Source: Amoebophrya sp. A120
Lineage: Eukaryota; Protista; Dinoflagellata
DNA length: 64,000 nucleotides
Direction of reading: 5' to 3'
Assembly (NCBI GenBank): GCA_905178155.1
Contig: CAJINV010000001.1
Coordinates: 16,395,166 to 16,459,165 of the forward strand
A program made the translations under genes and the position numbers. Positions 19,689 to 54,700 of the stretch are shown piece after piece. Below the pieces are notes generated by a model that did no database searches, was not told where the DNA came from, and saw only the letters and a list, made by a program, of their open reading frames with translations. Position 1 is the first letter of the stretch. Every line of letters starts with the position of its first letter.

Positions 19689-22600
19689 ATGATGCCGTCG
19701 TCTTCCTCGTCATCGTCCTCAGCCCTCATGAAGCGGCCACGCCCCCAATTCAATGACATATTTTCCGACCCATTCTTCAACGACGAGACTGCGGGCGCAC
19801 CCAAGCGACACAAAACCATCGGGGAACAGCTTCGCCGCCCCGAGCGGTGGATTTTCCCGGGAAGAAGGGACCCGCGCGTGGAAACCGAAAAGGGCAGCCA
19901 CGACTTCGAAGCAGCCCGGGATGGTTATCATGCGAGTGATGCCAAGGGAGAAGTGCTCGCGCGCTACGGTTTCAACCTCGCGCTACGATGCCACCCGCAT
20001 CCCTGCGCCATCTCGGAGACCCGCACCACGCACGTGGCGATTCCGGAGGACTTCGAGCTGCGTGTCCCTCGGGAATTGATGGAGCGCGGGGTTTTGTCGT
20101 CCACACAGATCGAGACCATCACCCTAGCGGCGCTACGGACGGCGGACGTAAAGGCGCCCGCGAGCACTGCTGTCGTGCTGTCCAACGGGAGCGACGCGGG
20201 CAATAAAGTTATGGTTTGTGTGATGAGGAGGCAACACGGGCCTAGCGAAGCGGCCCGGGGTGCCGAGGAGGGAACACAAAGCGGATTTTTATATAAATAG
20301 TATGCTCTGCCTCCGTCTGTCGCCACGGTCCCGGGAAGACCTTAAACTCGAGGCCATTCAGTTCACATTTTCAAGCTTTCATCTAGGCCTGCTGCCGTTT
20401 CGACACTCTTCACTTCAATCTTTCAGCTCGTCCAGCCTGGCTGGCCAACAATGTACCGCCCGTTTTCATGGCTGGCCAATGTACTGGCTGGTATCGGTTT
20501 CTGCCCGTTTTTCAGGGTATCAGTTTCTGCCCGTTTCAGGGTATCAGCTCCTGCCCGTTTCAGGGTGTCAGTTTCTGCCCGTTTCAGGGTATCAGTTTGT
20601 TTCTGCCCGTTGCAGGGCATCATTTTGTTTCTGCCCGTTATCAGGGTATCAGTTTCTGCCCGTTTCCGGGTATCAGTTTCTGCCCGTTTCAGGGTGTCAG
20701 TTTCTGCCCGTTTCAGGGTATCAGTTTGTTTCTGCCCGTTGCAGGGCATCAGCTTGTTTCTGCCCGTTTCAGGGTGTGAGTTTCTACCCGTTTCGGGGTA
20801 TCAGTTTCTGCCCGTTTCAGGGTGTCAGTTCCTGCCCGTTTCAGGGTATCAGTTTGCTTTTGCCCGTTGCAGGGCATCAGTATGTTTCTACCCGTTTCAG
20901 GGTATGAGTTTTCTACCCTTTTCAGGGCATTAGTTTGTTTTTGCCCGTTTCAGGGTATCAGTTTCATCTGCCCTTTTCAGGGTATAGACTTCTGCCTGCT
21001 TCAGGGTTATCACTCAGTTTCCGCTCGTCTCAGGGACCGACCTCTGCCCATTTCAGGGTATTGGCTTGTGCTCGCGTGAGGATATCTTTTTCGGCCCGTT
21101 TCTGGGGCCAGTTTTCTGCCCGAGTCAGGGTATCGTATCGGGCTTCTGTTCATCTTGTCGGGCTTGGGGAGCGCCTTCTGTTCATCTTGTCGGGCTTGCA
21201 GTAGCCGCACACAAATGCGCTACGTCTTTCAATGCCTTCCGAAGCCCCTTGCGATTGCTGACGCTGGCCTGCTGCTAGTCTGTAAATGTATCAATGGTCA
21301 AACTACCCCCCCTGCGGGCGTCTGAACTCGAGCCATTGGCAAGGCTCTACGGTACGAGTCTGCTTGCGTCTGCTCACCAGGCAGTATGAAAGACGCCTGG
21401 CGGATTCTCTTCACGTTCGATACTCGTCACGACGCCGGCCTCTGTGTGGGTCCTGTGTTTGCTGCTGCGGCACAAATACGGCGACCACCATTGGATGGTG
21501 TAGTGACAGCTCGTTCGCATTCCTCGTCTGCGCCGGCCTCAACATTTTCCACGCGGATCGTGTTGCGCAGCGAAGGTTTTTGCAGCATAGTGCAACACCT
21601 GCGCACTACATTTTGTTTCGTGTGGCCTGGGCTGTTCGATACTTTTGCCCTGAGGTTTTGAAGTTTCTTGCTTCGTGCCTGGTTCTATTGCCGTTGGTGG
21701 GCCTCGCTGCGGGCGCTTGCATCTAGTTGATGACCTTCGCGGAAATTGGGTATCTGCACCGTCTTGCCTGTTGATGTAGCGCCTGTGCGCCGTCTCTTGG
21801 AGGCCTGTTACCGACAGCATTCTTGTTGCTGTTCGTTCTATCACATTTCCTTTGGGTGTGTTTTTTTTTTTCAAGTTGTTAATGCTAGCATTCGCACACC
21901 CGTACCTGCGCTGACGCTGACCGAGGGCTTTATACACGTAGCCCGCGTCTGGTCCTGAAAAGCCCCTGTGGGTATTTCTGTCTCTCCCGTCGCCTGTGTG
22001 CAGATCATCAAATGGTCTTTCCTACCTTCATCTAGTGTCACACGGCTGCGGATGCGCTTGCCGCTTACCTGCTCCAGAGCCTGTTTCTCTTGTAAATTCT
22101 TTGGAAAGTTCCGTAGTGCGCGACGGGCCCTCAAATCTATTCCTCTTTTCTTTTTCTTTGTGCTTCTGTTGCTCCGTATTAAAGCGAAGTGATGCTTCTT
22201 TACTGCTATACATGTCGCAACCCGCGCTGTGGGCGCTCTTCGCTTTCATACTGCGCAACCTCGCACCAACGGGCCTCTCTTGCTCCGCCATCGGGGTTGT
22301 CAGCTTTTTCGGTCTGGCGACCCGCGTTCGCTAGCTCGGCCCGTTGTTGTCTCCGACAGATTATGTTATAAAGGCGCCCGCGAGCACTGCTGTCGTGCTG
22401 TCCAACGGGAGCGACGCGGGCAATAAACAAGTGGGTAAGCACAAGGGGCCGCTACAGATACAGCAAAAGTTACCTGCGACCGACACCCCGCGAGACAAAA
22501 ACTACACCAAAGGCTTTTTAATTGGCGAGGGCACGGGCTGCGGTAAAGGCCGCATGATTGTCGGAGTGATGCTGCACTACTGGAATCACGGACACCGGAG

Positions 22601-26246: not shown

Positions 26247-26791
26247 GCGGCGAGAGCAATTACTTCTACGAAGATTTTTCGCTAGAAGACGCGACATTGA
26301 AGTACAGATCCATCGTACTTAAACAAGACTGCTAGAGAAAACATGAAATTCAAGTCTCTCGTGATGCATCAAAGTTCTTCATCGCTGTCACCAAGATAAG
26401 TGGCTGCACTACCGTTTTCCCCGCGACAAACAGCATGACGCAAATCAATTTCATATCATCGTGCCACGAACTGACACTACCACAAATTTTTCACTGCGTT
26501 TAAGCTGCGTTCCTCGGATCGCCGTGTGAGTATACCAACGATACTCCGCTTGGTTAATCAAGCGGACAAGTCTTCGTCACAACCCATTTTACGCGGAGTG
26601 CTGACAGAAAGAATTCTCTGTCGCTTTTTGCGGCGCTGTGGTGGTGTCGTCACGAGAGAAATCTGGTGTAGCCAGTATGACGAGATACGAGTCGTGAGGA
26701 CGTGTGTAACACAACCTTTTCTACTGTCCCTTGCAGAGATATGAAGAGCTCATTAGCCGTCATTAATCATTCCAAAACTAGTACACACAAG

Positions 26792-30193: not shown

Positions 30194-33100
30194 ATGGTGT
30201 TGTCGACGCTGCGCGCGTCGCGGAGTGCCGCGCGCCGCGTGGCGGCGCAGAACGCGCAGCCCAGCAGTTCCGCGTCCTCGAGAGCTCCTTTTCGCTCGCA
30301 AGTCAGATGTTTCTCGGAAAGCAAGGACCACCTCCCGGTGGCCGACCGGCTCGCCTTCTTCGACCGGACGAGAAGTGGGCACTTTATCCCGCTCAAGCCG
30401 GACCCGAACCTGCACGCGGAACTGGAAACCTTCGACCATCCCACGATTCCGAAGAAGAAGTTCGTGAAGGGAATTCGGCCGCCGGCGGGGCTGTACGAGG
30501 CGATGTACGGAGTTCTGAAAGACGAGCTGAAGGCCATGGAGGACATTAGTAAGTACGACCAAGGCATCAGCGAAATGTTGACCGAAACCGAACAGAAGGG
30601 CTACCTCGATTCCCTCCTTGCGAACTTACTTTTCCCAAAAGTCGTCGCACCGCGCGCACAAATGGCCACAAAAAAGACGATGTTGTTCCCCGCTTCCATC
30701 TACTCGCATATGCCAATCGGGATGGGAAACTACTGCATGCAGAAGATGGGCGGAAGTTTTGAGGAGAGTTATCGCTACGTCACCTACTATCGTTCCGGGC
30801 TCATGATGGAAGAGTACTTATTTCGTTTTGCTGAATTTTCACCGTCGAGTCAAATGAAACAAATGGGCAACATAGCTCTGCAACACAAAGAACAAAGCTA
30901 TTTGCACGAGGTGGCGCTTCTGTACTCGTACACGAATTTTTCAATCTTCCATCGTAGATCTGTCACAACATCATAACTGCTTATGCTTACACATCTATCA
31001 AACAGGTTGTACCGCATTGGGTACACGCAGGACGAAGCCATCAAGATGATCTATGGCGTTCTCAAACGTTACATTCTCAACTGTTACATGGATTTGTGAT
31101 GCAAGAATGGCAAAAGTCAAAGGGGTGACCTTGCGCGTCTAGCATGACAAATTTGGCACAGATTCTCAGCCTGTTTGGCTGTTCGAGAATTTGTCATGCG
31201 AAGCAGCTTGATCGTATCAATTCTAATTGTGATTTTGCATGACAAATCATGTAACAGTTGAGAATGTAACGTTTGAGAACGCCATATGATCGCGAAAGAG
31301 CACTTCATGCAGTACTGGTCCGGCGACCCCTTCGGCCCGAAGCGCGACCCGCACATCTATAACCCCTTCAAGCGGACCTTTTACCCGCCGCTGTCGCCGA
31401 TCTCCGAGGGGTCCACGGATCTGGGTCGTGACCACGAGCTGGAGACCGCCCGCCTGTTCGCCGCCGGCTTCGAGGGGATGACACCGCCAGTGACCATTCT
31501 CTCGTCCGGTGACACGGGTATGTTCACCGACGGTGCCCTGAATTCCATCCAGCACCTGGTCGAGGCCTCGGAGCGCGGCTTCAAAATGCCACTGGTGTAC
31601 CAGGTCTGCATGAACAATTCCGCCATCAGTACGCGGTACGACAAGGGCAGGGATTACGGTGTGGATGACTTGGATGTGTGCTTGATGAAATTGGAGAACC
31701 GCTTCGCGCAGTATGAGGGCCTGATCGACCCCGGGTTCGTCTCCCGTGCGGGCGATGTCAAGGACGGCATGGACTGCATGCGGAAAGCAGTCGACCAGGT
31801 ACAAAGGGGTAGATTGTTGCTTGATGTTGCGTCAGTAGACGATACGAAAACTACTAGGCAAATCTTGTTCCGTTCGCAACAACGGAACGCACATGAGAAA
31901 TGAAATTTTTCACCTCACATACGACTTCACCTTGCATACGAAATGACCAGGTGCTGGAAACCGGTCGGCCGACGTACGTGATCAGTTCCTTCCCGTTCCG
32001 TCCGGGTGGCCACGCGGCGGATGCCAACCCGTCCCCCGAGCCGATCATTCTGGATCAGTTCAAGAAGACGCGCGACATCTTCCTGAGCCAGCTGTGCGCC
32101 GCTGCGCCCAAGGGCACCACCGGCCCGCAGCTCGCGAGCATGATGGAGGAATTCCATGACAAGGTCTACGAGGAGGTGGAACTCGCGATTCGCGGCAAGA
32201 ACATCCTGACCCGCGAGCAGGCCCGCGAAATTTCGCAGCCGGGGATCACCACGACCTTGGCCAACGAACCGGGTCAGATCGTAAACATCGACATTGACTA
32301 CATGCTGGCCAAGAACCAAACCGAGTTCGCGGGGATGGGGTCGGATATCTACGGCCGAGCCATCAACAACCAGTTCGACAAGTGCGAAGCCGAAGGCCGG
32401 ACAGTCAGGTATTGTAGTAAAGCGCCAAAGCAATAGCAAACTGCTGGTTTTGTAGCATGAGTGCATGGCTTAGGCAACACTCCACCCTTCGCCCGTGCTA
32501 GAGGTAAGCGGGTCGCTTAGGAAGACAATGTAAAGGTTGTTGCGCGCCGGCAGCATTTGCTTTTCCGGACTCGCATTATAATCTCCTAGTGTTGATATCG
32601 TACAATTATTTCCGCCTTTATTTCAGATACGTCCATCAAGAGAACCACTATGCGGGCGAGCACGATTCTCGCGGTGGCGTCTACGGCGAACTGAACGCTG
32701 TGCAGGGGAAGCACACCAAGAAGTTCGTGTCCATCTTTCCGCAGGAGGCCCAAGTGATGCAGGTCGGTATGGCCATGCGCTCCGTGCTGCCGGATAACAA
32801 TCTGGTTTTCGTCAAGGGACCGCACACCATCTTCAACGAGCATGCCCGGGACATCATGAAGTACGCCGCTTTCCTGGTTTGCGATAGGGGGTTGAAGGGG
32901 AACTGCATTTACTTCTTCGATGGCGGAAGTATTGCAGATAAGGACAACTTCAAGTACAAGGACGCCGAAACTGGGGAGGAGGTATTCTGAAGTGCTTTTT
33001 TTCTCTCTTCGTTTCCACTCTGAAAGTGTCTAGTGTAGTGAAGTTCATCGAACAAAATTGATTTGAAACCACCACAAATCTCATGATCTGATCAGATCCA

Positions 33101-35623
33101 ACGCGACTTGTGGCTCGCGGGCGTCGGTGAGCACCACAACACCCCGGAGTACTCTTCCTACGCGGCCGACGCAAACACGGTGATGGCCGTTCCCTGCGAC
33201 ATGAACGTGTTGTCTGCGTGCATGACCGAGATGGTCCGCCTCTACGACATGGGCCGTTTCATCACTGCGGTTGCGCCCACCAAGGCCTTCCAGGTCCTCC
33301 ACCCCAAATTCGCGTGCTTGCCGGAGGGCCAGGGCTTCACGATTAACGACATCCTGAAGGTCGACTTCAAGGACAAGGGCAAGGTCGCCCCGAAGACCGG
33401 CCGTCCCCTCATCGTGCTGTCTTACGGGCCGGACGCGAAGCTCGTCGCAAAAACCATCGCGGACCACGGCGTATTAATTTTTGCCTTAAGAGCGACTAAT
33501 TCCAATTTCTGTCTTCAAACTTTGTATCATCGATGAACTGCACGCAGATTTTGGTCTCATAATTGTGCTTTCGGGCGAATAATCACAGGTGCAATGCGAA
33601 ATGTTCGTCTTCAACTTCAACCGCGTTCCGAACTCTTTGGTGAGCTACCTGCAATCTCGGTTGAGCGAAGACCTGGATATCCTGCTGGTTGACCAGAATT
33701 GCGACGCGGCCCTCTTTGGTCCCGTCGTCACGGATCTGAAGCAGAAGCTCGGCAACCCGCGCAACTTCTTCTTCGCGGAGTGCACCATCCCGAAAACGTT
33801 TATCCCGTACGGCTTCGGTGAGCCGCTCCTGCAAGACAAGGACATCACTGCCAGCCTCGCGGAAATCGGCGTCATCGACGGTGCTGCCGCGCCGAAGGTA
33901 TGTTTTTGCTTTACTTCTTCTTTTCAGAAACAGTGGCCGCTTCTACGAAAAAGAAAATCTAGAGGCGCAGCTCCCACTTACCCCTTCAAAAAGTTATGTG
34001 TCTGATGTATCTCTGTGTTTCATTCGATTTACAACAGGCATCCGCACCGAAAGCCGCTGCGGCACCCGCAGCCGCCCCTGCTGCCGCACCCGCGGCGAGC
34101 GCCCCGTCCGGCGGTGGTGCCGCTGTCAAGGTCAATGCGCCGATGGACGGAGAGGGCGTGTACCTGACCTTCCACAAGAAGGTGGGCGATTCGGTATCCA
34201 AGGGCGACATCGTCGTCGAAGTTGAGTCCGACAAGGCCACCATCGAGGTCGCTGCCACCACTGACGGTAAAGAAAAGTTAGTTTTTTTCTATCGTCCTCG
34301 ACCTGCTGCGAGGCACATTTCACTTCAATTTTGCCTGCTTGCGCCGAAGAAAATCACGCCATTTTCTTCATCAATACTTCAGGTGTGATCGCGGAGTTCT
34401 TCGCTGAGGAGCAAGAAGAGATGGACGTGGGCCCAGACACTGCGCTCTTTAGCATCGAGCCTGCTGGTGGAGCGGGTGGTGCTGCCCCCGCGGCGGCCCC
34501 GGCCGCACCCGCAGCGGCTGCCCCGGCCAGCGGTGGCGGCGAGGTGGTCAACGTGAACGCACCGATGGATGGCGAAGGTATTTTTTTGATGCTGGCCAGA
34601 ATTGTTTAGCCTGCTTTTGATTGAACAAGACAACAGATCTACATCACCTTGCGGAGTACTAAATTCAGTTATCCCCTGCTCAAACCTTGACACCATTATC
34701 GCAAAACAAACCTCTCTAAAATCGCATCAGGTGTTTACCTGACCTTCCACAAGAAGGTCGGTGATTCCGTTTCCAAGGGCGACATCGTCGTCGAAGTTGA
34801 GTCCGACAAGGCGACGATCGAAGTGGCCGCGCCCGCGGACGGTGTGATCAAGGAATTTTTCGCTGAAGAGCAAGAGGAGATGGACGTGGGTCCCGATACT
34901 AAGCTGTTCTCCATGGAGAAGGGCGGCGGTGGCGGTGCTGCTCCGGCGGCGGCCGCTGCGCCCGCTGCTGCTGCTCCGGCGGCCGCCGCTGCGCCCGCAG
35001 CTGCGGGTGCTGACGGCGTGAAGGAGGTCGCCCTGTCGCGGGTGGAGCAGGCGATGGTGAAGGCTATGACGATCACGCTGGAGGATACCCGCACGTTCAG
35101 TCAGTTCGACTCGCTGGACTTCAACAAGGTCCGGGCCATCGGGAAGGAGGCCGGCGTCACCCCACCGATTGTGATGGTCAAGTACCTGGGCGAAGCCGCC
35201 AAGAAGCACAACCTGAACAAAAAGCTGTCCAAGGACCGAAAGTCCATGCTGTTCCGGGACCAGGTCGACATCGGTATCGCGGTGGATGTCGGCTCCGGGC
35301 TGCGCACGTGCGTGATCCGGGACGTGACCAACAAGACTCTGCAGCAAATCAACGCGGACGTGCAAGGCTTCGTCGCTGCGGGCGGAAAGTTGTCCCCGCA
35401 GGACACCGATTTGACTACAGTTTCCTACACCGTCACCTCCATTGGGAAGAACGCGGCGAAATTTGCAGTTTCCGTTTTGCCGCCCAAGACCGCCGGTATT
35501 CTGTCTATCGGCCGCATGGCGAAAGATGGTGAGGCCTACCTCTCCTTGGCTATGTGCCACGCGACCTTGACCGGAGTTGAGGGTATGACCTTGCTGGGTG
35601 AGGTCAGAGACAGCCTGTCCTAA
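30194..35623 (+). CDS. fused 2-oxoacid (pyruvate/branched-chain-type) dehydrogenase E1alpha-E1beta-2x lipoyl-E2 polyprotein with mitochondrial-type presequence (~1330 aa, 10 exons)
   Basis: TPP motif GDTG...MNN and FRPGGHA (E1alpha); QE...GGVYG...PQEAQ and GEHH (E1beta); two VEVESDKATIEV lipoyl domains; acyltransferase domain with DIGIAVD...CHATLTG. No stop codon between domains after splicing. Confidence 0.88.
31052..31286. mobile_element. young introner-like TIR element in E1alpha exon (TSD TGATC)
   Basis: Perfect 39-bp TIR TATGGCGTTCTCAAACGTTACATTCTCAACTGTTACATG (31052-31090 / 31248-31286). TGATC at 31047-31051 and 31287-31291. Internal GCATGACAAAT motifs. In-frame stop inside. Confidence 0.95.
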
Positions 35624-41100: not shown

Positions 41101-42678
41101 AACCATGACATTCTGGGATCTGAGGCAACAGGACGCCTCCTACTACATCGACGTTCCGGACGAGGAGCTTCTGGCACTAGACATGAGCCACAACGAAAAA
41201 TATTTGGTCACGGGAGGTAGAAGATTTCTTGACCTTTCACGTCGAATATCTCTCGGTGCAGAAGCACTTGTTCGCAGCAATGCAAATGATGCTGAAGATG
41301 CAGTACGAGGATAGAGAAGGCCGCAATCACAATGCATATCAGAATTTTACCAAATCCAAAGGTACTGGCCATACAGTGAAGCTTTGGGATCTGCGCAACG
41401 TCCAGCAGGGTCCGTTGAGCGTCGGCAGCGGACACAGCCGCGATATTGTCAGCGTGAAATTCGCGGAGGACGACAAGCAAGCGATTTCCGCCGCGAAAGA
41501 CCATTCGATCCTCGTACTAAGTGGAAAAATGTCTGCAGCAAAAAAAATCAAAATTTTTGGTAGTGCAGTTTGTGCCCTTCTCTTCTCGCCCGGACTGCAG
41601 CGCGCTGGTGCGTGCCGTGGCCTCCATGCTGGGGAACTTGACCGAGGTGCTGTACTCCATTCCTGCTGCGTCGTTTGGTCGAAGCTCCCGCGCGAGCTTG
41701 AAGGCCCCCTAGTAGTCAGCCCAAGCGTTCGTCCTCATCCTTCTCGTTCTGGAAGTAAGTAGTTCCTTTGCCCATGCTCCTGTCCAGCATGCCGCAACCC
41801 TCAGCCAGGTATTTGGGCGTGAAGCCCCTCCCGCCAAAAGTGGCAATTTGTAATGCGCGTTTCGCATTACAAATGGCCATCTTTTGTGACCCGTCTTGGG
41901 CTCGCTCTCCGGGCCGGGTCACAAATCTGAGCCCCTGCATCAGCAGAATTGGGTGCTGTGAAGGTTCAGATTTGTGATGCCAAAAGAGGCTCCGCCAAAA
42001 ACGTCTGCACCTCGACTATGAGGTCCCCAAGTGGAGGCGCAGACGTTTTTGGCGAGGGGGGGGGAAAGTGAGGCTGATAGCCCGCGTTTGTCTGCGCCGC
42101 CAAAAACGTCTGCACCTCCGAAATTGGCCTCCAGATGAGGTGTCTTCGGACACCTCTTCGGAGTCCTCCCGAGTCGCGGACCTTCGGGGCGACAAATTGC
42201 GGCCGCCCTTTTCGCAGGGCCCCGACCTGTATCGGGCTGAATTTGCAGGCAAAAGCCTGCGATTTGAGCTCATCCCCGAGTCGGCCTCCTCCGAGGCCGC
42301 GAGGTTTGAACCAAAAGCGAGCCTCTTGGTCAGCAAATTCAACCCATTCTCAAACAAGACATGTACGCGGTAAATCGTCAGGAATCAGGAGGGGGTGTGG
42401 GAACTTGAAGAACTACAACTGCGAACCCGGGTGGACGACGCCCACCGATACCGACGTACCTAGTCCCCCGGTGGCTGAGTTGTCTCCTCTGCTTCGTCCG
42501 CCGAGGCCTTGCCGGAATACCTGGCCTACCCATTTCCTTGATTTTGTTTCATTGTGAAAAAAAATAAACATACAAGCAGGCGCCCGAAAAGGTAGGATAC
42601 AAAAATTTTGATTTTTTTAGCTGCAGACATTTTTCAGTTTAGTACCTCGTGTGGAACATTTACGACAAGTCAGCGTGA
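38169..42678 (+). CDS. cilia/flagella WD40 protein, CFAP52 (WDR16)-like
   Basis: MELEHAIG start, FFHGHDDFVTCVAVSHDGRMIASGQ, YLYAGTTTGD, multiple WD repeats, C-terminal DHSILVWNIY. About 11 exons, three of the junctions being TIR elements. Confidence 0.8.
39565..39830. mobile_element. introner-like TIR element in exon (TSD CGTGT)
   Basis: Perfect 27-bp TIR TATCCTGAGTAAAAACGTACCCACACC. CGTGT at 39560-39564 and 39831-39835. Several GCATGACAA motifs. Removal restores FRVKTK. Confidence 0.95.
40528..40726. mobile_element. introner-like TIR element in a WD motif
   Basis: TATCGCACAGAAGATTAC / GTAATCTTCAGTATGATA. Flanks GTGGC/GTAGG are each one change from GTGGG. Removal restores LRVWETK. Confidence 0.8.
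41515..42644. mobile_element. 1.13-kb non-autonomous TIR element in the last coding region of the WD40 gene (TSD CCTCG)
   Basis: ~44-bp TIR TACTAAGTGGAAAAATGTCTGCAGCAAAAAAAATCAAAATTTT / AAAATTTTGATTTTTTTAGCTGCAGACATTTTTCAGTTTAGTA. CCTCG at 41510-41514 and 42645-42649. Internal CGCCAAAAACGTCTGCACCTC repeats. Confidence 0.92.
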
Positions 42679-42749
42679 AATTCGCGGAGGACGACAAGCA
42701 AGCGATTTCCGCCGCGAAAGACCATTCCATCCTTGTTTGGAACATTTAC

Positions 42750-43682
42750 TTCAAAAAAGAAAATTTAAGAGCAGGACGATAATTCAGTTTTTTGGGTGTG
42801 TGTCCACAGCGAGCCAGCTAGCCAAAAAAACGGGCGAGAACCCGCACCATACGCGACCAACATGCCGCGAGTCGTGCCTCCTCGCAAAGTCGCGATCGAC
42901 CGACGCACAGCTCACAGTGAGGGAGGGGGGGGCGCCCATTCACCGCTTGAAGGGGCGCAAGGGGCTCCCGGTAGAGTAAGTCGCGTCGCAGTATCGTTGG
43001 CCCAAATGTGGCGAGCGTCACAGCCGGCAACTTTGATCGCGCGGCCTGCAGGTCTCGGCTCAGGACCAGGAGTCTCCTTTCACCCTTTGCCGCGCAAAGG
43101 GTGAAAAGGGACTGTGGATAGCAAGGCACGACGCAGTACCTTGAGCCAAAAGTGCTCAAGGTCTGCGTCCGCGACTTCGATCGAGTGGTCCACAAGTCTC
43201 AACTCCGGGCTTTTTCTCCCCTTTGCCTCGCGAAGGGTGAAAAGGGACTCAGGATAGGAAGTCACGACGCAGTACCTTGAGCCAAAAGCGCTCAAGGTCC
43301 ACGTGTGTGACATTGGTCGATTGGCACACAAGTCTCAATTAGGAGCCTCCTTGCTTTCTTTTCCCCGCGAAGGGTGAAAAGGGACTCCAGGTAGCAAGTA
43401 GCGGCGTAGTACCTTGAGCCAATTGTGCTACGCTGCGCGACCCGCATCGTTGTGCGCTTGATCCACAAGTCTCAATTAAGTACTTTCGCAAGAAATCGTC
43501 TGCCTTCTCCAGCATTCCGTGGTGAGTAAAGTTCTACAGCTAGTATTTTGAATCAGGTGAACTAGATCTGTAGAACGTTAAACACCATGGCGCGCTGCGC
43601 CTGGCGCTTTTGCAGCGCCATCACTTGCAATAAAATCCTCGCGGTTGGCGTGGGCGCCGATCGCGATGATTTTCTGGTGACC
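42750..43682. mobile_element. 933-bp insertion carrying SL-like tandem units, flanked by a 76-bp duplication of the WD40 gene 3' end
   Basis: Identical 76-bp repeat at 42674-42749 and 43683-43758. Three ~136-bp internal units. No clear TIR. Confidence 0.75.
43104..43475 (-). ncRNA. three tandem spliced-leader (DinoSL)-like RNA gene units
   Basis: Minus-strand leaders ACCTTGAGCACTTTTGGCTCAAG, ACCTTGAGCGCTTTTGGCTCAAG and AGCGTAGCACAATTGGCTCAAG, each followed by a 32-nt segment starting GTAC and then TTTT. Compare DinoSL DCCGTAGCCATTTTGGCTCAAG. Expression not shown. Confidence 0.65.
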
Positions 43683-44641
43683 CGTGAAATTCGCGGAGGA
43701 CGACAAGCAAGCGATTTCCGCCGCGAAAGACCATTCCATCCTTGTTTGGAACATTTACGACACGTAAAGTCCGAGGCGGTCGGAATCTGGATGGCGCTCG
43801 CAGTCTCGCAACGATAATCTGTAGCTCGAAAGAGTCTTCTCAGTCTTCTTTTTCAATTCAAAAGCACGTAGTGGGTAGCTCAACAACAAAGTTTTAATCA
43901 GATCAAACTAGTATACGAAGAGATTCTTGTACTTGTAGTGGATATTTACGTAGCACATTATTACCTGGCTCGATGTAGAAGGACCAGGCGAGGACTTTCG
44001 CGTTCAGCTAGAAATGCCTGGACATCATTTTCATTTTGTTACTAGAGCCTTGCACAAGGAGCAGACTGTCTTCCTGGACCGATTCTCAAGTGCTCATCGA
44101 ATAGATGAAGAAGGATGTCAGTTGTTTTTTGCACTTGCAGTTGCACGACAGACGAAAACACAATGCGCGGGAAAAGATGAGACTGCAGCACCACACAAAT
44201 GTCCAACTTTTCGATTGCTATCGATCTAGTTGCGAGCCGGTCGCTGCAGGAAGGTGGTCTGGTGTTTTGATTTCTTTGCTTTTGTACAGCATGCAAGGTT
44301 CGAGCTCGCAGAGCCAGAAGCAGCGTAGCAGGTAGAGGATCACTTGGTCTTCCTGTTTCCGACGGCTTTAAAGCTGCCCGTACCATAGCAAAGCCTATTT
44401 AGCTACCCTGAGTAGAAGCAGAGTTTTTTTCCCAATTTGTTTTCATGAAAACAGAATTTTTGGTAAGTTGTTGCAGCGAAGGCACAAGAATAATGGTTCG
44501 CGGCGTGCGGTGAGCTACTTTTCATTTGCCAGACAGACCAACCGCGACATCATGCCGTCGGCGGGGGCCGTCGCTCTGCTTGGCGCACCTCGAGGCCCCA
44601 TTGCAGTACGTATCTGACTAGCCTTCTAGGTCGTCATCGCC

Positions 44642-47010
44642 ATGGAGGGCCTCAAGGACCCATGTGGTGACCGGGTGGTGAAAAGCCTGCCACCCCCACC
44701 TGCAAAGCCGCTGGACGAAGCTTTGCTTTATCCGGAAAACGGAGACAAAAAGAAACCTGATGTTGCAGTGTTGAAAAAGCACCTGCTGAGGGAGGGCAAG
44801 CTCTCCAAGCAAACGCTTTTGGATATAATAGCCCGGGTTACCGAGATCTACAGGAGCGAACCGACGTTGGTATCATTTTGGTTCCATCGACCCAGATACT
44901 TCTGCCGCTCAAGTGAACCTGGACCTGCTTCGTGTCTTTGAGCAGATCGCGTGCATGTCTTGCCTACACCCACATTGTTTTCCGATGAAGTACTTAACAA
45001 ACAAACTGCAGACTCAAATTCTTTTGCCCCCAAGGTGAAAGTCCGAGACCCGATAACAGTTGTTGGGGACATTCATGGACAATTTTACGACTTTGTCAAA
45101 ATGCTGGACGTTGGCGGCGATCCTATGACGACGCAGACCCAGTACCTGTTTCTCGGTACATGCCTACTAGCAGAACTGCTGTTGAAGTAGTTGAATTCAT
45201 TCATTGCTTTGTTAGCATGGTTTGCCTTCCACGAAACACGCCTGGTGCCGCGGTTCAAAGCAATCCTTCTGCAAGAAAATCATCCAAAAAGGTGACTACG
45301 TCGATCGCGGTTCCTACGCAATAGAGGTGCTCATGGTGCTGTTTTGCACGAAGATTACCCACCCGAAACGAATATGGATGTTGCGGGGCAATCACGAATG
45401 CAGGCAGATGTCGGCGTTTTTCAACTTTCGGGACGAGTGCGAGTACGCTTTTTTTGCGACGATTTTATTAGTACAAAACTGTATCTTTATTATTCTATTC
45501 TTTAGAAGTTTTGCTCATGCGCATCCATAGTATCCTTTTTGCTGCAACATCGCTACCGCTACATTCAGGTCGAAGTATGACACGACCGTCTACAATGCGT
45601 TCATGGAATGTTTCGACGCCCTCCCGCTCGCGTGCTTGATAAATGGCAAGTTTCTGGGCGTGCACGGGGGGATTTCGCCCGATCTCGTTTCCCTGAAGCA
45701 GCTTGACCGCGTGGATCGGTTTGCGGAGCCGCCCAGGGAAGGAGTGCTGTGCGACTTGATTTGGGCCGACCCCATGGACGAAGCCAACGAACCGAATGCC
45801 AAGGACGTGTTTGTTAAAAACGAAGTCCGCGGCTGCAGCTGGTTCTTTACTTACGAGGCGGCCACGCAGTTCCTGTACAAAAACAGTCTGCTCAGCGTCA
45901 TAAGAGCGCACGAAGCGCAGATAGAAGGGTAAGCACGTTTCACTTTCAGACGCTCGTAATAAAACCGTCTGTGCACCCTCGATGCACTTCTTGTTTTGCT
46001 GTGTCAAGCACTTCTTCTAAAGAATTGTTTTTCGTTTGCACGATTATCAGGTACAAGATGCACAAGACGAATCAAGCGACCGGCTTCCCGACGGTGATCA
46101 CGATTTTCAGTGCTCCGAACTATTGCGACGTGTACAACAACAAGGGCGCTATACTGAAATTCGACAACAACACACTGAATATCCTGCAGTTCAACTTTAG
46201 CCAGCATCCGTATCACCTACCGAACTTCATGGACGTGTTCACCTGGTCGCTGCCCTTTGTGGTCGAAAAGGTCACGGAAATGCTGTACTACATGCTGCAG
46301 CCCAGTAGCGACCAGGAAGCAGAGCGCGAAATCGACGAGAAAGAGCTGCCGCCGGCGGTACACAAGATCGTGCGAGACAGCCTGTCGATGGAGCAGAACG
46401 AAGCAGTAAATATCTTTGATACTTGTTTGTCATGTGGCTCTTCCAGTGCCGCACAACTTCGAATCAAAAACAGTGTGCACCTCTAGCTCCTTGCGGCATT
46501 GCATCTCGAAAGGATAAGTTTTGAAAAAGTAGCAGTCTATCACAAAAATCTCAGATCAACCTCGCCGCGCGCCTGGCAGAGGGCCTGGAGGGCCATGACG
46601 CATCGCCAGGAGGCACGAAAAAGGCTGTCATGCCAACAAACGAGCAACTGGATGCGAGCGAAAGGCACGACCGGTTGCGCAAGAAAGTGAAGACGATAGC
46701 AAGGATGGCGAGTACGATGATTTTGTTGCACTTTTTCAACACAGAAGATCATGGACCACGAGTGATCAGATTCGTTCCTACTTGTTCATCAAAAATTTTC
46801 AACGCTTCTCCAAAAAATTATATAACAGGGATGTTCAAGACGCTACGACAGGAGAATGAGGCTGTGATTCGCTTGAAAGGCGTTTGCCCTGGGCACAGGC
46901 TGCCGCCCGGACTGCTACTGGCTGGGAAGAGCGGACTGGCGACAGAACTGGAGAGGTTCGATCACGCAAGATCGGTCGATTTGCGCAACGAACTGCGTCC
47001 TGACACCTAG
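44642..47010 (+). CDS. CNA: calcineurin (PP2B) catalytic subunit A
   Basis: [68 protein letters not shown]-terminal autoinhibitory [15 protein letters not shown]. Six GT-AG introns. Confidence 0.97.
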
Positions 47011-47016
47011 AATAAG

Positions 47017-48042
47017 CTAACATAGAATCTCGACGTGACCGGGCCGGTCACGTCCGCCCGGCCGGCCGGGCGGCCGGACCGTGACCGGGGGTTGTCCCTG
47101 GTCAGCCCACATCCTGGAGCCAGTCGCTCGTGGGGGTAGGAGGTGACGGCACTGCACCTTGAGCCAAAGTTGTGCAGTGGTAGAATGCACCTCGCGGCAC
47201 CTTGGAGCCCTAGGCCTTAATATGTAACGCGCCCGAGCGCGAGCGCATGCCCATAGAGATGGACCTGCTGCAGCAAGTAGCAGTGACTTGAAGTCTGCAT
47301 CGAGGGCGCAACGCCGTGACTTGCTACCCTCCGTCCCTTTTTACCCCTCGCGCGCACGCAGAGTGAAAAGTTAGTGGGAGGATGGAGTCGCGGCACTGTG
47401 CCTTGAGCCAAAGTCGTCCAGTGGTACAGTGCGGCTCACTGAACCTCGGAGCCACGACTTCGTTCTGGGCTCAATTGCACAGCGCCGTGACTACAGGCCT
47501 CAATATGCACCTGAAAGCCACAGGTCTCAATATGCGACGCGTCGTCCGAGCTCAGGCGGATCCAAGTGGCAACGCCACGAAGTCTGCAGCGAGACACTTT
47601 TGGCCCAAGGTGCAACGCGGTGAATTGCTGGCCCCAGCTCCTTTTCTCCGTTTGCGCGCAAGCAGAGTCGGGGAAACGGACGGGGGCGCAGGAGTCGCAG
47701 CCACGTGCGTGGGGGTTGGGTTGGGGTGGGTGGGCGGGGTGTTTCGAGCGGTTGCCAGCGGTGTCTCGCTGCTGTAGCTACTGCTACTGCATAAATAAGT
47801 CCGCCCCCGCAATGCTAGCTACTTTGCAGGAGCGTGAGGCCCAGCCAGGCTTTCGATTGTAGGCACTGCGGGTGGAGCTGGAGCCGGAGCGGCTCTGCTC
47901 CGCGCACCACATAAAACTAACATCTGGCGCAGCCCGCGCCCGGATAGCAGCCGCGGGACATAGTCTACCCCCGGTCACGGTCCGGCCGGCCGGCCGGCCG
48001 GGTGGACGTGACCTCCCCGGTCACGTCGAGATTCTCTGTTAG
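47017..48042. mobile_element. ~1.03-kb TIR element with SL-like units, flanked by a 68-bp duplication of the calcineurin 3' end
   Basis: ~76-bp TIRs at 47017-47092 and 47967-48042 (CTAACATAGAATCTCGACGTGACCGGG... / ...CCGGTCACGTCGAGATTCTCTGTTAG). Identical 68-bp repeat at 46943-47010 and 48050-48117, including the stop codon. Confidence 0.92.
47126..47645. ncRNA. three diverged SL-like units (two on the minus strand, one on the plus strand)
   Basis: Minus: CTTTGGCTCAAG|GTGC ending at 47158 and CTTTGGCTCAAG|GCAC ending at 47402. Plus: AGCGAGACACTTTTGGCCCAAG|GTGC at 47588-47609. The latter two keep the 32-nt spacing to TTTT. Confidence 0.55.
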
Positions 48043-48773
48043 AACCTCTCAGAACTGGAGAGGTTCGATCACGCAAGATCGGTCGATTTGCGCAACGAAC
48101 TGCGTCCTGACACCTAGTCGGGAGCGGGAAGCAGCGGCGTCTGCTTCGAGTAGGAGTTCTGCGTGATATCGCTGATTTTTAGTGCCCTCAACGTGAAACC
48201 AACCACGGTGTTACGCTTTTTGATTTTACCAACCACGCAACTGAGCGTTGTTCAATATCAATTCATCTATTACTTACAAGAACAGCAAAGTAGGCTTGAA
48301 AGTCGAGTATAGTAGAGTTCTTTGTCATTTTTCCAAATATTACCAACAGAATTTTTTACTTGTATTTCGTCCAGAACAGACAAAGATGTGCTTTCCTCCT
48401 TGTCAATTGACAAGAAACATGAAGAAACAAGTCATGCTGGCCTAAGTGCCATTTCCGGCGAGCCAGTCGTGACAATATTGTGCCACATAACATCATAGGT
48501 TCTTGTTTCGTCGTGATAGCTGTTCGCCTAGTAACAGAGCTTGTGTTTGTAGTTTCGCGGTAATGTTATGTTTGCGTTTTGGCAGATAATTGTTGCCATT
48601 TTTTCAAAGTTGTCTGTGTTCAGGGAGGAGTTATTTTTTTGTCGTGTCTAGCAATGCAAATCGAGCGCGAGTGATCAGAGCGACCTTCAGCTTTTCCAGC
48701 CTTGAAGTGGGTCGTCGCAAAAGTTTCCTCATAGAGTCTGACTTTCAACTAGTATGCTCGCATCGATCCATTC

Positions 48774-51700
48774 ATGCGTGGCAGCGCTGATGGGTGTCGG
48801 CATTTCGCTGTGAGTGGTGGTCCACACGGCAACGGGGGTGTGCAGCGGCGGCCATGGTCCGCACGGGGGCTTGTCTTGCTCGACAGCAGTGTGGTCGGAC
48901 GCTTGCACGGAGAGGCAGACCACGTGGCGCAACCCTCCGTCCCCTCCGGGACGTCGCGTGAAGAGCCTATGTCCCCGCACCATCCGAGCATACTTGTGCC
49001 ACCACCTGCATCGGACCCTGCTACTGGTAGCTTCGCCGTCCACCCACCCGACCTCCAAGCTATGGAGCTAGACAAGACGGGCACGCCGTCTGCAATCGGA
49101 AATGGAGATAGCACCACTCCAAGGACGGGCCTGTATTTTCACGGACGAAGGAAAACCGAGGCCGGGTTCCGCCTGACGCCGCCACCGGTCGTGGAGAAGC
49201 CGATGGCCTTCCATGGGGTGCTGCCGAGCGCATCCCGCGCTGCCAACTCGCCGCCCCTTGCTGCTCCTGCCAGTGAAAAGCGACCCGAGGCCGAGCACAA
49301 CGGAACAACGCACTCAGCAGGGAGTATGCTAGAGCGGGACCAAGGAGCCAGCAATGCCTACACGACGCAGGACCGCAGCGTCGCTGCCACCGACTCGCGG
49401 GCCTCTTTGCGGAAGCGGGCGATTAATCCGTGCGTCTGCGAGAACGGCACGCCTTTTCCTTAGTATTCGCGCGAAAATGTGGGTCGAGATAAACGATGCA
49501 GCATCTAGCTGCGTTAATTTGAAAGTAGCTTTCCACAAAAATAGCATACAGCATTTTTCCATGCTGCGGACGAGTAAGACGCCACATCATTTTTTATGCC
49601 GCAGCAGATTTCTATCGATTCCTTTTTATTAGAGGTAGTAGAGCTACACTGACTGGTGATTTAGATTTTGGCCGCATACTCGATCCCTGATTTTCGTTCA
49701 ATATCATCGGTGCTTGGTGCAATGGTGTGCTACCAGACGTGACGCGGTGCGCTTCCTGCAACCAAGGCTGGCATCGTCAAGATGATTTCGACAAGCCGAA
49801 TTGGTTGTCCTGCCAGCCGAACACATGCGTTTGCGAAGACGGAGACGGTGCGAGCATCGGCACGCCCGCCACAGGATATTTTTGTCCCGAGAACGGCGGA
49901 AATTTCTGCTCCGCGTGCGTCACTGGGCGCCACGTGCATGACACCTTGGGCGAGAATTTTCTTAAATGCATTTGGAATGAATGCACCTGCAGCAACGGCG
50001 ACGCGGCCACGAAGGCAGCGTGTACAGCGCACGGACTCGAAAGGTGCGGAGTATGTCATACCGGGTACGTTCTGGACGACGGGCTCTGCGGGAAGGAAGG
50101 TTACAAGTGCAAGTGCGACACTGGAACGACCGTTCCGAAGGGGGACGCGCGGTGTCCCAGCAACGGCGCTGTTTATTGCACCGCCTGCAACAACGGCTAC
50201 TACCTGCAGGGGAACCAGTGCAAGCTCAACCACTGCACGTGCGACAACGGGGACGCAACGACCGGAACGGACTGTCCAAGCAACGGCGCCCAGCGGTGCA
50301 AAATTGACGAGTGCCACGCCGGGTACCATTTCCAAGGCGATTTTGCAGTAAAGGATCCTCCTTGGGGGACCTGCCAGCCGACAACCTGCACATGCCCACA
50401 CGGGACTGGGGCAACCGGCGCCGCGTGTGTGACGCATTTGTCGCTGCAGTGCGAAACGTGTAAAAAAGGCTACAGCCTGCAGGATAAATCCTGCGTTGCC
50501 AATATCTGCAAGTGCCCGAACGGGACGCCGTTTCCGCCTGGAAGCGAGTGGTGCGGCGAACATATCATGATGATGAAAGAAAAAAGTCGCTTGGAGCGAA
50601 TGCGCTCTTGCATTTTGCGGTTCGCATTGAACAGTAGTACTACCTAGTGCTGCAAATACATTACACCGAAATCCTAGTCAATGTCCGTTGTAGTTCTGTT
50701 TGCTGAAAACTGTCAAACTAAGGAATATTTGGTGAATATCTATGTGGAACCAGCAGAGACGAGAAGCAACAGTAGCAAAAACGAAATAGAGCACGAGCAC
50801 CAGCACGTGCATGAACAGCAGGTGACGACAGGCATTACGCTCTGCAATATCCCACGACGGAACCTCCTGCGAGTCTTGCGAGCAGGGGTGGCACCGGCAG
50901 GACAACCCCGACGAGCCCGGATGGCTTTCCTGCGTCGAGAATGTCTGCACTTGTGCAAATGGGCAAGTCGCGACCGGGCCATTCTGTTCTGAACACGATC
51001 CAGACAACCCCAAAACCGCGTGCAGCTCTTGTAATGATGGCCTGCACGTTCATGACGTCATGGGCCCAGATTTCCTTAAATGTGTGACGAACCAGTGCAC
51101 CTGTGCGCAGGGGACGCCGGCCGTGGGTACCGCCTGCCCCGTGCACCAGACCGAAAAGTGTGTCGAGCCATGCAACGGCGGCTACGTATTCGAAACTGTG
51201 AGTGGGCACGGCATGTGCAATCCCGAGGTTGGTAAGCAGTGTGTCTGCGGGAACGGAGTCCCCGTGGCCAAGGGTAGCTCGCTGTGTAAAAACGAGGGCG
51301 ATGTCGTTTGCGCGTCGTGCTATCGCGGCTTCCGAGGTTTGACCTGCGAAGAGAATGTGTGCCCCTGCGCGCACGGGACGCCTTACAAGGGTAAGGACTG
51401 CAAAGACGGCGATCCCCTGGTGCTGTGTTGCGAGACAGAGGGGATCACGAGGTGTAAATCCTGCGAGAGCGGTTACCGCATTCAAGATGACTTCAACAAG
51501 CCCGACGTGTTCAGTTGCCAGCCCATGCAGTGCGAGTGCGAAAACGGTTTTGGCGCAAGTGGCCCACCGGCGTGCCTGTCGGAGGGTGATCATGCGTGCA
51601 GCATGTGCAACATCGGCTTCGAGAAGAGCTCAGAAACTTGTCATGCTGAGCCAGCATCTGTAGCCTCATCATGAGACGCCACCCAGCATCACAAGTTTCC

Positions 51701-54700
51701 AGACCCAGACATTTTTACATTTGATATCGCGGCAAGAACATCCTGACCCGCGAGCAGGCCCGCGAAATTTCGCAGCCTGGGATCACCACGACCTTGGCTA
51801 ACGAACCGGGTCAGATCGTCAACATCGACATTGACTACATGCTGGCCAAGAACCAAACCGAGTTCGCGGGCATGGGATCTGATATCTACGGCCGAGCCAT
51901 CAACAACCAGTTCGACAAGTGCGAAGCTGAAGGCCGGGCAGTCAGGTATTGTAGTAGAGCGCCAAAGCATAGGCGACTGCTGGTTTTGTAGCATAAGTGC
52001 ATGGCTTAGGCAACACTCCACCCTTCGCCCGTGCTAGAGGCAAGCAGATCGTTTAGGAAGACAATGCAAAGGTTGTTGCGCGCCGGCAGCATTTGCTTGT
52101 CCGGACTCGCACATTAGAATCTCCTAGTGTTGATATCGTACAATTATTTCCGCCTTTTCAGGTACGTCCATCAAGAGAACCACTATGCGGGCGAGCACGA
52201 TTCCCGTGGCGGCGTCTACGGTGAACTGAACGCTGTGCACGGGAAGCACACCAAGAAGTTCGTCTCCATCTTTCCGCAGGAAGCCCAGGTAATGCAGGTC
52301 GGTATGGCCATGCGCTCCGTGCTGCCGGATAACAATCTGGTCTTCGTCAAGGGACCGCACACCATCTTCAACGAGCATGCCCGGGATATCATGAAGTACG
52401 CCGCTTTCCTGGTTTGCGATAGGGGATTGAAGGGGAACTGCATCTACTTCTTCGATGGCGGAAGTATTGCAGATAAGGACAACTTCAAGTACAAGGACGC
52501 CGAAACTGGGGAGGAGGTATTGTTCTGAAGTGCTTTTTTTCTCTCTTCGTTTCCACCCTGAAAGTTTCTAGCGTAGTGAAGTGCATCGAACAAAATTGAT
52601 GTGAAACCACCACAAATCTCATGATCTTATCAGATCCAACGCGACATGTGGCTCGCGGGCGTCGGTGAGCACCACAACACCCCGGAGTATTCTTCCTACG
52701 CGGCCGACGCGAACACGGTGATGGCCGTTCCCTGCGACATGAACGTGTTGTCCGCGTGCATGACCGAGATGGTCCGCCTCTACGACATGGGCCGTTTCAT
52801 CACTGCGGTTGCGCCCACCAAGGCCTTCCAGATCCTGCACCCGAAATTCGCGGCCTTGCCGGAGGGCCAGGGCTTCACGATTAACGACATCCTGAAGGTC
52901 GACTTCAAGGACAAGGGCAAGGTCGCCCCGAAGACCGGCCGACCCCTCATCGTGCTGTCTTACGGGCCGGACTCGAAGCTCGTCGCAAAAACCATCGCGG
53001 ACCACGGCGTATTGATTTAAATTTTTGCCTTGCGTGCAGCATGTGCACATCGTGCAGCAAGTCGGAGGGTGATCATGCGTGCAGCATGTGCAACATCGGC
53101 TTCAAGAAGAACTCGGACAATAGGTGCGAGCAAATGACGGAGGTGCTAGTCTGCGTGTGTCCCAACGGCACCCCATTCCCTGCCGCCAGCGAGTTCTGCC
53201 CGGCAAACGGCGCAACAGCCTGCGCCTCATGCGACGACGGGTATATGAGACAAAATGACCCCGCACTTGAGAACTGGCTTTCGTGCTTGGAAATCGTTGA
53301 ATATACCTGTATATCAATCGCGAGGGAGTCTGGGTTTGAAACGCGGAGCCAATTCTGCATTTCTGAACATGGGATACTTTTCTAGAGGGAACTTATTGAT
53401 CATCACAATTAATTTCGTGTTTGTGATCAACCCTCCTGTAGCATCACAGATAATAGACATTTCCGCTCTTGCAAACCAAGCAATGTTTGCAGTGCAAAAT
53501 CTGTTTGCGAGAACGGGACGCCGGTGCCGCCCTCGAGCGGGTTCTGTCCAAGCGAGGGCGCCAACGTATGCGGCCCCTGCGATTCGGGATACCACAAGGA
53601 CGGGTTCGTGTGTGCCGAGAATGTTTGCATCTGCCCCAAAGGCGGTCTCGGGACGAAAGGGCGGGAAAAGTTTCCAGACGGAAAGTCGAAGTGCTCGAAA
53701 GACGGTGACACTGCCTGCGCAAGCTGCACCGCGGGTAAGCACGTGCACGAAGAGTTCGATGAAAATTTTTTGCAGTGCGTTGACAACGTCTGTGTGTGCA
53801 AGACCGGCGATCCGGCTACGGGCACCGCTTGTGAAAGACACGGCGAATTCAGGTACGACAGACTAGCTGAGCTTGAGTAATTTTCCGAAATCAATAGTGC
53901 CACACCTACATAACTTCGCTCTACCTGTACTGTTTGGTGCTCTTTCTGTACAAATCAACTTAGCGCTGCAATATGACTAAGAGCGATGCTAATCTTGGTT
54001 CTGGGTCCTGTTTCCCAGTCCCAGCGAGTCGCGGACCAACAAAATCCTACGCAAAAACATCGGCGTCAGGTGTGCCGATCAGAGTGCTCCGTGCATTTGC
54101 CCAGGGGGACAGGCCGCCACCGGGAAAGATTGCTACTCGGCGGGAGCGAACGCGTGCTCCCCGCAGACGCAGTGTGCACCAACGGCCGAGTTCGTGGCAA
54201 AGGTTATGCCCCGAGGCGTGGATGGTGGTGACACGGTGACGCGCTGCGTTCGAAAATGCAGCTCGCTCGGTAGCGCTTCCTCTTATTCTTTTTTGGACGT
54301 CGGGAATAAAAAACAACAGGATCAAAGCAGCGAAAAATCCGCGGGACAAGAAAACAGAAGTCCTCTCCCACGACTAAGGCGGGAGCCGCAAACATTGCCT
54401 GAGGCGGAGGAGAGACAATTGTGGAGGCAGCACGATGAAAAATCGCGGACACAAACCAGTACCCTGGTGCGCCGTTCCTCGTCCGACCGCATTGTCCACG
54501 ACGGCCGAGAAGGCAAGTCGCGCAACTCTACCTTTTCTACTTCTCGAGATGTAACACACTCCGATTTATTTCGGCGCGGCGGACAAACTCGTGCTGGGCT
54601 TGCGCTCGGGGCCAGCTCCTTCGCAGAGCGCCGACAGCGCGCAGAGGCAGAAAACATCTGCAAGATCGAGGACAATTGGATTCTTCGGGACTTCTCGGAC

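What the first reader, a model, noticed from the sequence alone, without database searches (positions are those of the whole stretch)
20149..53117. Recurrent insertions flanked by long (43-76 bp) duplications of host coding sequence
Seen: four unrelated cargoes, each bracketed by a long direct repeat of the target. These are 59 bp (20149/22369, SBNO), 76 bp (42674/43683, WD40 3' end), 68 bp (46943/48050, calcineurin 3' end) and 43 bp exact or 57 bp with 3 mismatches (51578/53061, Cys-rich gene). Some junctions have short filler (6-7 nt at calcineurin; scrambled partial re-copies at 53031-53060). Known: DDE TSDs are usually 2-11 bp, and templated fillers are typical of polymerase-theta-type end joining. 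Inference: a frequent pathway of widely staggered nicks plus templated capture, independent of cargo.
Basis: partly seen in the sequence, partly recalled or inferred. Interest (0 to 1): 0.75.

Follow-up and report, generated by a model that had tools for sequence, protein, structure and literature searches.

The report
Repair scars that capture divergent alleles
In the marine parasite Amoebophrya, pieces of mobile DNA and of a neighbouring gene sit between two 43-76-base copies of the target site; they are likely scars of sloppy chromosome-break repair that at times copied a differently mutated version of the gene, which would be a trace of a sexual stage not yet seen in this group.

Summary
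All four long direct repeats are present as described (chance maximum 16 bp); short-read contigs branch as real duplications should. The window matches Amoebophrya sp. A120. Cargoes are not wholly unrelated: three are multi-copy elements (two share a repeat unit); the fourth is half an introner plus an intron-containing gene fragment. That fragment differs from the gene 19.5 kb away at 26 silent and 7 replacement sites and carries an introner the gene lacks, so its donor was a working, divergent allele or paralogue. An extra, cargo-free duplication joins an introner-bearing WD40 end to an introner-free version with three silent changes. Fillers are templated from the repeat. A related genome shows eight similar pairs at six loci, three with templated fillers. 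No poly(A), no target consensus. Best reading (0.5): a break end is extended on a sister or homologue, then end-joined through captured DNA, polymerase-theta style; staggered nicks, half-finished transposition and retro-insertion remain rivals. One cargo is spliced from RNA. The scan noted this class before on other pieces of this genome; I found it in no paper searched. New variant of known repair scars; interest 0.55.

The parts
20149..20207 (+). SBNO target copy 1 (59 bp)
   Evidence: SBNO label from Pfam AAA_34/Helicase_C_4 and P0001 matching both sides of the insert
20208..22368 (.). Cargo 1: 2161-bp non-coding element, internal 24-28-bp tandem repeats, single-copy interior but multi-copy ends, weak subterminal inverted repeat; family ends overlap the repeat by 2-4 nt
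22369..22427 (+). SBNO target copy 2
32190..33487 (+). Present-day homologue of cargo 4, part of a likely 2-oxoacid dehydrogenase-complex gene; lacks the introner that the cargo carries
   Evidence: 95% over 1309 bp; label from Pfam hits of the downstream exon 34691-35620 only
41448..42667 (+). WD40 3' end copy 1 (85 bp without its introner), three silent differences from copies 2 and 3; the copy used in RNA
41515..42644 (.). Ordinary introner, TA...TA ends, 5-bp target duplication, removed from RNA (joint 41509>42645 in X3 and X6)
42669..42749 (+). WD40 copy 2 (introner-free version) after a 1-nt filler; 42674-42749 is the 76-bp repeat
42750..43682 (.). Cargo 2: 933-bp multi-copy element with 136-bp internal units related to cargo 3; most of it and copy 3 skipped by RNA joint 42778>43821 (X3 only)
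43683..43758 (+). WD40 copy 3, followed by the original stop
46943..47010 (+). Calcineurin A target copy 1, ending at the stop codon
   Evidence: calcineurin label from recalled motifs, no family hit
47011..48049 (.). Cargo 3: multi-copy element with 76-bp terminal inverted repeats (47017-48042), 6-nt left filler, 7-nt right filler that is a snap-back copy of the repeat; a 5-bp repeat also brackets it
48050..48117 (+). Calcineurin target copy 2, now in the 3' UTR
51578..51620 (+). Cys-rich gene target copy 1 (43 bp exact)
   Evidence: protein P0015
51626..51726 (.). Cargo 4a: right 100 bp of a very high-copy 250-270-bp introner
51727..53030 (+). Cargo 4b: genomic, intron-retaining fragment of a divergent functional copy of the gene at 32190-33487
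53031..53060 (+). 30-nt patchwork filler, 17 nt of it copied from the repeat
   Evidence: 0 of 5000 shuffles
53061..53103 (+). Cys-rich target copy 2, followed by the rest of the Cys-rich frame
60553..62023 (.). Likely fifth, older event: 245-bp repeat (98%) around 982 bp of non-coding DNA; no LTR-type short duplication

Best explanation
These are insertions in the Amoebophrya A120 genome, each flanked by a 43-76-bp duplicate of the target, likely made when one end of a chromosome break is extended by copying a sister or homologous chromosome and is then joined by polymerase-theta-type end joining through a captured piece of DNA instead of re-annealing. Shown: the duplications, microhomology or templated filler at the junctions, mixed cargo, no tail, no target motif, and two cases where the copied DNA is a different version of a local gene. 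Inferred: the break, the short (40-85 nt) extension, the template switch to a nearby gene or capture of free transposon DNA, and the enzyme. The break may itself be a transposase half-reaction where the cargo is a whole element. The scars likely persist because they fall at 3' ends or stay in frame and because this lineage's permissive splicing can cut the cargo out while leaving the duplicate in the RNA.
For: Fillers copied from the repeat: 17 of 30 nt at the Cys site (0 of 5000 shuffles), 7 of 7 nt snap-back at calcineurin (14 of 5000), and 13, 14 and 19 nt at L009, L036, L024 of a related genome (0 of 5000 each). Cargo 4 against the gene 19.5 kb away: 26 silent, 7 replacement differences in 316 codons, no stop, dS 0.135, dN/dS 0.07; neutral decay would predict about 46 replacements (P about 1e-12); it carries an introner the gene lacks, and X1 depth gives two copies only (85.7 against about 43). 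WD40 copy 1 against copies 2/3: introner present/absent and three silent changes, 1-nt filler, no cargo. Four cargo types, cargo 4 retains introns. No boundary consensus in 9 sites (36 of 60 random sets score as high) and no A/T tail in 13 events. Eight similar pairs at six loci in about 0.6 Mb of a related assembly, including an intact introner with a 75-bp duplication whose family otherwise has 5 bp (L026; 3 of the 4 other complete copies). Worm tandem duplications arise by end joining of failed strand-annealing intermediates with templated insertions (PMC8654963, passages).
Against: The four cargo-bearing repeats are identical pairs, so they do not by themselves tell extension from staggered nicks. 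The left calcineurin filler is not templated from the repeat (5000 of 5000 shuffles as good). Whole elements joined at their natural ends (cargo 1, L026) fit a transposase or retro step as well, and 5-bp repeats around cargoes 1 and 3 fit insertion into an earlier duplication. Worm duplications are longer (100 bp-10 kb) and cargo-free. The divergent donor could be the ancestral neighbour on the same chromosome, later replaced by a crossover, or a lost paralogue. The three WD40 changes cluster within 10 bp of the introner, so local mutagenesis is possible. POLQ presence untested; no empty allele seen.
Confidence: 0.5

Rival explanations
1. One-ended transposition: the introner transposase joins one element end, and host repair joins the other some tens of bases away.
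For: L026 has one blunt clean end and a 2-nt filler at the other; cargoes 1-3 end at or near family ends; retroviruses do this when one end fails (PMC7912079, one passage); about 30,000 introners in A120 (PMC7789003 section 11).
Against: Cargo 4 has no element end at either junction; the WD40 copy 1/2 duplication has no cargo; only 1 of 552 inverted-repeat candidates had a long host duplication abutting it. It is a possible trigger of the best explanation rather than a full alternative.
Confidence: 0.17
2. Widely staggered nicks on one duplex, fill-in, and capture.
For: Identical repeat pairs, lengths clustered at 35-76 bp, fillers copied from the repeat need it single-stranded; staggered breaks are invoked for Daphnia intron gains (PMC4202315, passages).
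Against: Cannot give copies of different allelic state (WD40 copy 1 against 2); no nick-site motif; Daphnia repeats are 4-12 bp.
Confidence: 0.12
3. Target-primed reverse transcription by a non-LTR element with a wide stagger, acting in trans on element RNAs, excised introns and pre-mRNA.
For: Cargo-independent by nature; A120 has non-LTR elements (PMC7789003 section 5); cargo 4 is 5'-truncated with microhomology; cargo 1 family has A-rich right flanks and a head-to-tail junction at depth 216.
Against: No tail and no target consensus; cargo 4 keeps its introns and ends inside one; patchwork fillers; cargo-free duplication unexplained.
Confidence: 0.1
4. Two steps: a small tandem duplication first, then an ordinary 5-bp-duplication element inserts at its junction.
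For: A 5-bp repeat brackets cargo 3 and cargo 1; summed contig depths at calcineurin fit RNA keeping both copies plus a short filler (47,100 observed; 48,700-50,200 for two copies; 16,300 for one).
Against: Needs repeated hits on a 10-bp junction; no such 5-bp repeat at cargo 2, cargo 4 or L026.
Confidence: 0.08
5. Assembly or haplotype-merge artefact.
For: No spanning long read seen; one junction (Cys copy 1 to cargo) not displayed in X1; divergent versions side by side.
Against: Uniform single depth and no variant letters in flanks, contig breaks at repeat borders, RNA contig running copy 2 into cargo 2; same anatomy in an independent assembly.
Confidence: 0.03

Closest known systems
Tandem duplications by polymerase-theta end joining of failed synthesis-dependent strand annealing (C. 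elegans helq-1, brc-1; PMC8654963, passages read)
   Same: Direct duplication of target DNA, microhomology and patchwork templated filler at the junction
   Different: Here 35-85 bp (rarely 245-303) not 100 bp-10 kb, usually with 0.3-2 kb cargo between the copies, in a wild genome, sometimes from a divergent allele
Amoebophrya A120 introners / non-canonical introns (PMC7789003, sections 5, 10, 11, 12, 16 and passages read; PMC12130899, passages)
   Same: Same genome; several cargoes are such elements or pieces of them; at least one is spliced out at non-GT-AG ends
   Different: Described repeats are 3-5 nt (83 of 90 full copies of one family have 5 bp); here 43-76 bp with fillers and non-element cargo
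HERV-K long target duplications and one-ended retroviral integration (PMC5488345, passages; PMC7912079, one passage)
   Same: Element flanked by 61-450-bp host duplication; host enzymes can join the second end
   Different: Rare exceptions of one element class; here frequent, mixed cargo, and also cargo-free
Daphnia intron gain by break repair (PMC4202315, passages)
   Same: New spliceable insert flanked by a repeat of exon sequence, attributed to break repair
   Different: Repeats 4-12 bp there, donors mostly unknown; here ten times longer with identifiable donors

Membership tests
Polymerase-theta-type repair duplication | Microhomology or templated insertion at junctions | tested here: met
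   one of six fillers tested was not templated
Polymerase-theta-type repair duplication | Dependence on POLQ | not testable with these tools
Polymerase-theta-type repair duplication | POLQ gene present in the genome | not tested
   protein searches spent elsewhere; PMC6680887 passages list Ku70/80 and LIG4 in core dinoflagellates and do not mention POLQ
Polymerase-theta-type repair duplication | Head-to-tail copies without kilobase cargo, about 1 kb long | tested here: not met
   only WD40 copy 1/2 is cargo-free; lengths 43-85 bp
A120 introner (TIR element) | 3-5-bp target duplication only | tested here: not met
   43-76 bp; family norm 5 bp
A120 introner (TIR element) | Terminal inverted repeats | tested here: inconclusive
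   cargo 3 yes (76 bp), cargo 1 weak subterminal, cargoes 2 and 4 no
A120 introner (TIR element) | Multi-copy in the genome | tested here: met
   cargo 1 ends, cargo 2, cargo 3 and the introner half of cargo 4 have variant or high-depth contigs in X1
A120 introner (TIR element) | Removed from mRNA | tested here: inconclusive
   joint displayed for cargo 2 in one run; cargoes 1, 3, 4 only inferred from contig geometry; cargo 4 letters occur in RNA
Non-LTR retro-insertion (TPRT) | Poly(A) or simple tail at the 3' junction | tested here: not met
   longest A-run 3, T-run 5 in 13 events
Non-LTR retro-insertion (TPRT) | Copy of spliced RNA | tested here: not met
   cargo 4 keeps two GT-AG introns and part of a third; pre-mRNA copy not excluded
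Non-LTR retro-insertion (TPRT) | Endonuclease target preference | tested here: not met
   9 sites only
Non-LTR retro-insertion (TPRT) | Reverse transcriptase encoded in the cargo | tested here: inconclusive
   no Pfam hit in three cargo 1 frames and one cargo 3 frame; cargo 2 frames not scanned; action in trans untested
LTR/TRIM element | Repeats belong to the element and have their own short target duplication | tested here: not met
   repeats are in-frame host coding sequence, two-copy

The most novel reading that the evidence does not exclude
Amoebophrya has a routine repair route, active when two divergent haplotypes share a nucleus (a hidden sexual stage), that copies 35-85 bp from the other allele, captures nearby DNA of that allele or free introners, and seals it by templated end joining; because its splicing cuts at a fixed distance from TA...TA ends even without a hairpin, such scars become instant introns, giving transposase-independent intron gain and short peptide duplications.
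Probability: 0.3. Interest if true: 0.78.

Novelty: new variant of a known kind. Interest (0 to 1): 0.55.

Why it matters
Scars that elsewhere mark repair-deficient mutants occur here six times in 64 kb of a wild genome and again in a relative, so this lineage may run error-prone repair as its norm. Cargo and duplicates taken from a functional allele about 13% divergent at silent sites would be sequence evidence for haplotype mixing in a group whose sexual cycle is described as unknown (PMC13693241, passages). The inserts also give natural test substrates for the unexplained non-canonical splicing of Amoebophrya.

Tried and rejected
Pattern scans for the cargo 3 terminus in metagenomes and fetched loci (0 of 130) and for the cargo 1 end in viral contigs found nothing, so the true family ends and normal duplication length of cargo 3 stay open. 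Rfam on 19500-64000 gave one chance hit (E 0.3): no ribozyme. No A120 gene model of this SBNO came up in two searches. The published Cys-rich model stops inside cargo 4. No listed run was on record as RNA; X3, X4, X6 are taken as RNA from their GT-AG joints, all one sample; X5 laid nothing; X9 matched only an introner end. Lack of RNA cover inside cargoes 1 and 3 is not used as evidence. An RNA contig piece stopping at 51577 with 250 letters left looks like an empty-site join, but a 43-bp repeat exceeds the contig word length, so I do not count it. The SBNO RNA record of 82 nt implies the repeat end joined back into the repeat; its geometry gives a 52-nt duplicate (frameshift), whereas GT-AG or the fixed-register rule gives 54 nt (in frame); unresolved. 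Census rows dropped: L003 (tandem paralogues), a 32-bp low-complexity pair and tandem repeats in L068, and all high-copy introner ends; 52 of 130 loci under 1500 nt were not scanned. In one search, 12 of 13 'long' rows were nested elements or paralogues and 214 of 552 candidates had no duplication (many probably false pairings). LTR reading of the 245-bp pair rejected (no short flanking duplication). The primary paper on one-ended integration was not held. Supplements of PMC7789003 were not read and could mention long repeats.
Full report
Observation. The four repeats are present at the stated places: 59, 76 and 68 bp exact, and 43 bp exact (57 with three mismatches). In 40 simulated windows the longest exact repeat within 3 kb was 16 bp. 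Flanks beyond the repeats are unrelated, so these are not tandem paralogues.

Organism and context. The Cys-rich protein is 100% identical to a protein that its source names Amoebophrya sp. A120. The window holds ordinary introners with TA...TA ends and 5-bp duplications (3 clear cases plus one doubtful), as described for A120 with repeats of 3-5 nt (PMC7789003 section 11). In loci of a related assembly found through a shared introner end (taxon not established), 83 of 90 full copies of one family have 5 bp. The long repeats are thus about ten times the local norm.

Not an artefact, as far as contigs tell. DNA run X1 covers the flanks without variant letters at one depth and breaks at the repeat borders, which is what a sequence with two entries and exits does. 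An RNA contig runs from WD40 copy 2 into cargo 2. X1 may be the source sample, and no long read was seen.

Anatomy. SBNO: cargo 1 has a single-copy interior and multi-copy ends; other family copies match from 20205-20206 and up to 22370-22372, so the element's own ends overlap the repeat by 2-4 nt, and the family's right and left ends occur joined head to tail at about five-fold depth. WD40: copy 1 carries an introner and three silent differences, then one filler base, then introner-free copy 2, cargo 2 and copy 3. Calcineurin (label from recalled motifs): the repeat ends at the stop codon; cargo 3 has 76-bp inverted ends, and the 7-nt right filler is a snap-back copy of the repeat. Cargoes 2 and 3 share an internal unit. 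Cys-rich gene: cargo 4 is the right 100 bp of an introner followed by 1.3 kb of an intron-containing gene and a patchwork filler.

The donor of cargo 4. It matches 32190-33487, 19.5 kb away, at 95%. In 316 codons there are 26 silent and 7 replacement differences and no stop (dS 0.135, dN/dS 0.07); neutral decay over half the divergence would give about 46 replacements. It has an introner where the present gene has none, and depth allows only two copies. The donor was therefore a working copy that is not now in this genome: most simply another allele. Capture across homologues, capture in cis followed by a later crossover, and a lost paralogue all remain possible; the first two need haplotype mixing. 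WD40 copy 1 against copy 2 tells the same story with only three changes, clustered at the introner.

Recurrence. Scanning 78 of 130 loci (about 0.6 Mb) for low-copy repeats of at least 30 bp gave eight pairs at six loci (35-75 bp, one 303 bp) after dropping a paralogue pair and low-complexity rows. Three have fillers copied from the repeat (0 of 5000 shuffles each). L026 is an intact introner with a 75-bp duplication, one clean end and a 2-nt filler. This is sparser than the window, but that assembly is fragmented and the loci were chosen by an introner motif. Earlier unreviewed notes of this scan report the same class on other pieces of this genome; they are leads, not support.

Mechanism. 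No tail and no boundary motif were found. Mixed cargo, templated fillers and a cargo-free case from a different allelic version fit extension of a break end on another molecule followed by end joining, the route shown for worm tandem duplications (PMC8654963, passages), with capture of DNA in between (0.5). One-ended transposition finished by the host (0.17) may be the trigger for whole-element cargoes. Staggered nicks (0.12) give the same intermediate but not non-identical copies. Retro-insertion in trans (0.1) and duplication-then-insertion (0.08) are not excluded. Break, enzyme and order of steps are inferred; POLQ was not looked for.

Tolerance. Displayed RNA joints remove the WD40 introner (X3, X6) and most of cargo 2 with copy 3 (X3 only, letters between not known). 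The second joint has TA one base inside its start and TA four bases before its end without an inverted repeat, the same register as an introner joint at 40527-40730 (the rule came from earlier scan notes). At calcineurin, RNA contigs cover the UTR beyond copy 2, and summed depths fit both copies being kept; this is a weak inference. At SBNO the joint is unresolved between 52 and 54 nt kept. Cargo 4 letters appear in RNA and the published model ends in it, so that gene is likely split.

Literature. Searches for Amoebophrya with direct repeats, target duplications and introners and for long target duplications gave no description of this class; I read sections 5, 10, 11, 12, 16 and passages of PMC7789003 and passages of PMC12130899, PMC5488345, PMC4202315, PMC8654963, PMC7912079, PMC13693241 and PMC6680887, no supplements; other hits were seen as listings only. 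Verdict: real, recurrent, a new variant of known repair scars, most interesting for the divergent-allele donors; interest 0.55.

Noticed in passing
window 42779-43820: A 1042-nt RNA skip without inverted repeat has TA at +1 and TA four bases before its end, the introner register; suggests the splicer can use cryptic TA...TA ends.
   Followed up: partly
window 20205-20260 and 22283-22372: Cargo 1 family has its right and left ends joined head to tail at about five-fold depth in X1, as in circle junctions or internal complementary regions of tyrosine-recombinase retroelements (recalled) or tandem retro-copies.
   Followed up: no
window 30170-35623: Long multi-exon gene ending in lipoyl and 2-oxoacid dehydrogenase acyltransferase domains, possibly an E1-E2 fusion; upstream exons have no Pfam hit.
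   Followed up: no
window 31052-31286, 39565-39830, 6412-6740, 40528-40726: Ordinary introners; families shared with the related assembly. The one at 40528 has lost its duplication and ends in AG.
   Followed up: partly
window 1104-1168 and 60338-60484: Smaller repeats: 27 bp with 11-nt spacer, and 49-62 bp with short spacer; possible cargo-free members of the same class.
   Followed up: no
window 62176-63876: DUF285 (BspA-like) repeat protein with 75-bp units.
   Followed up: no
L009 1181-3746; L024 13428-14923: Three copies of one target with two different inserts, like the WD40 site: repeated hits at one place.
   Followed up: partly
window 36980-37510: Small RING protein resembling RBX1 (recalled motif, no family call).
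   Followed up: no
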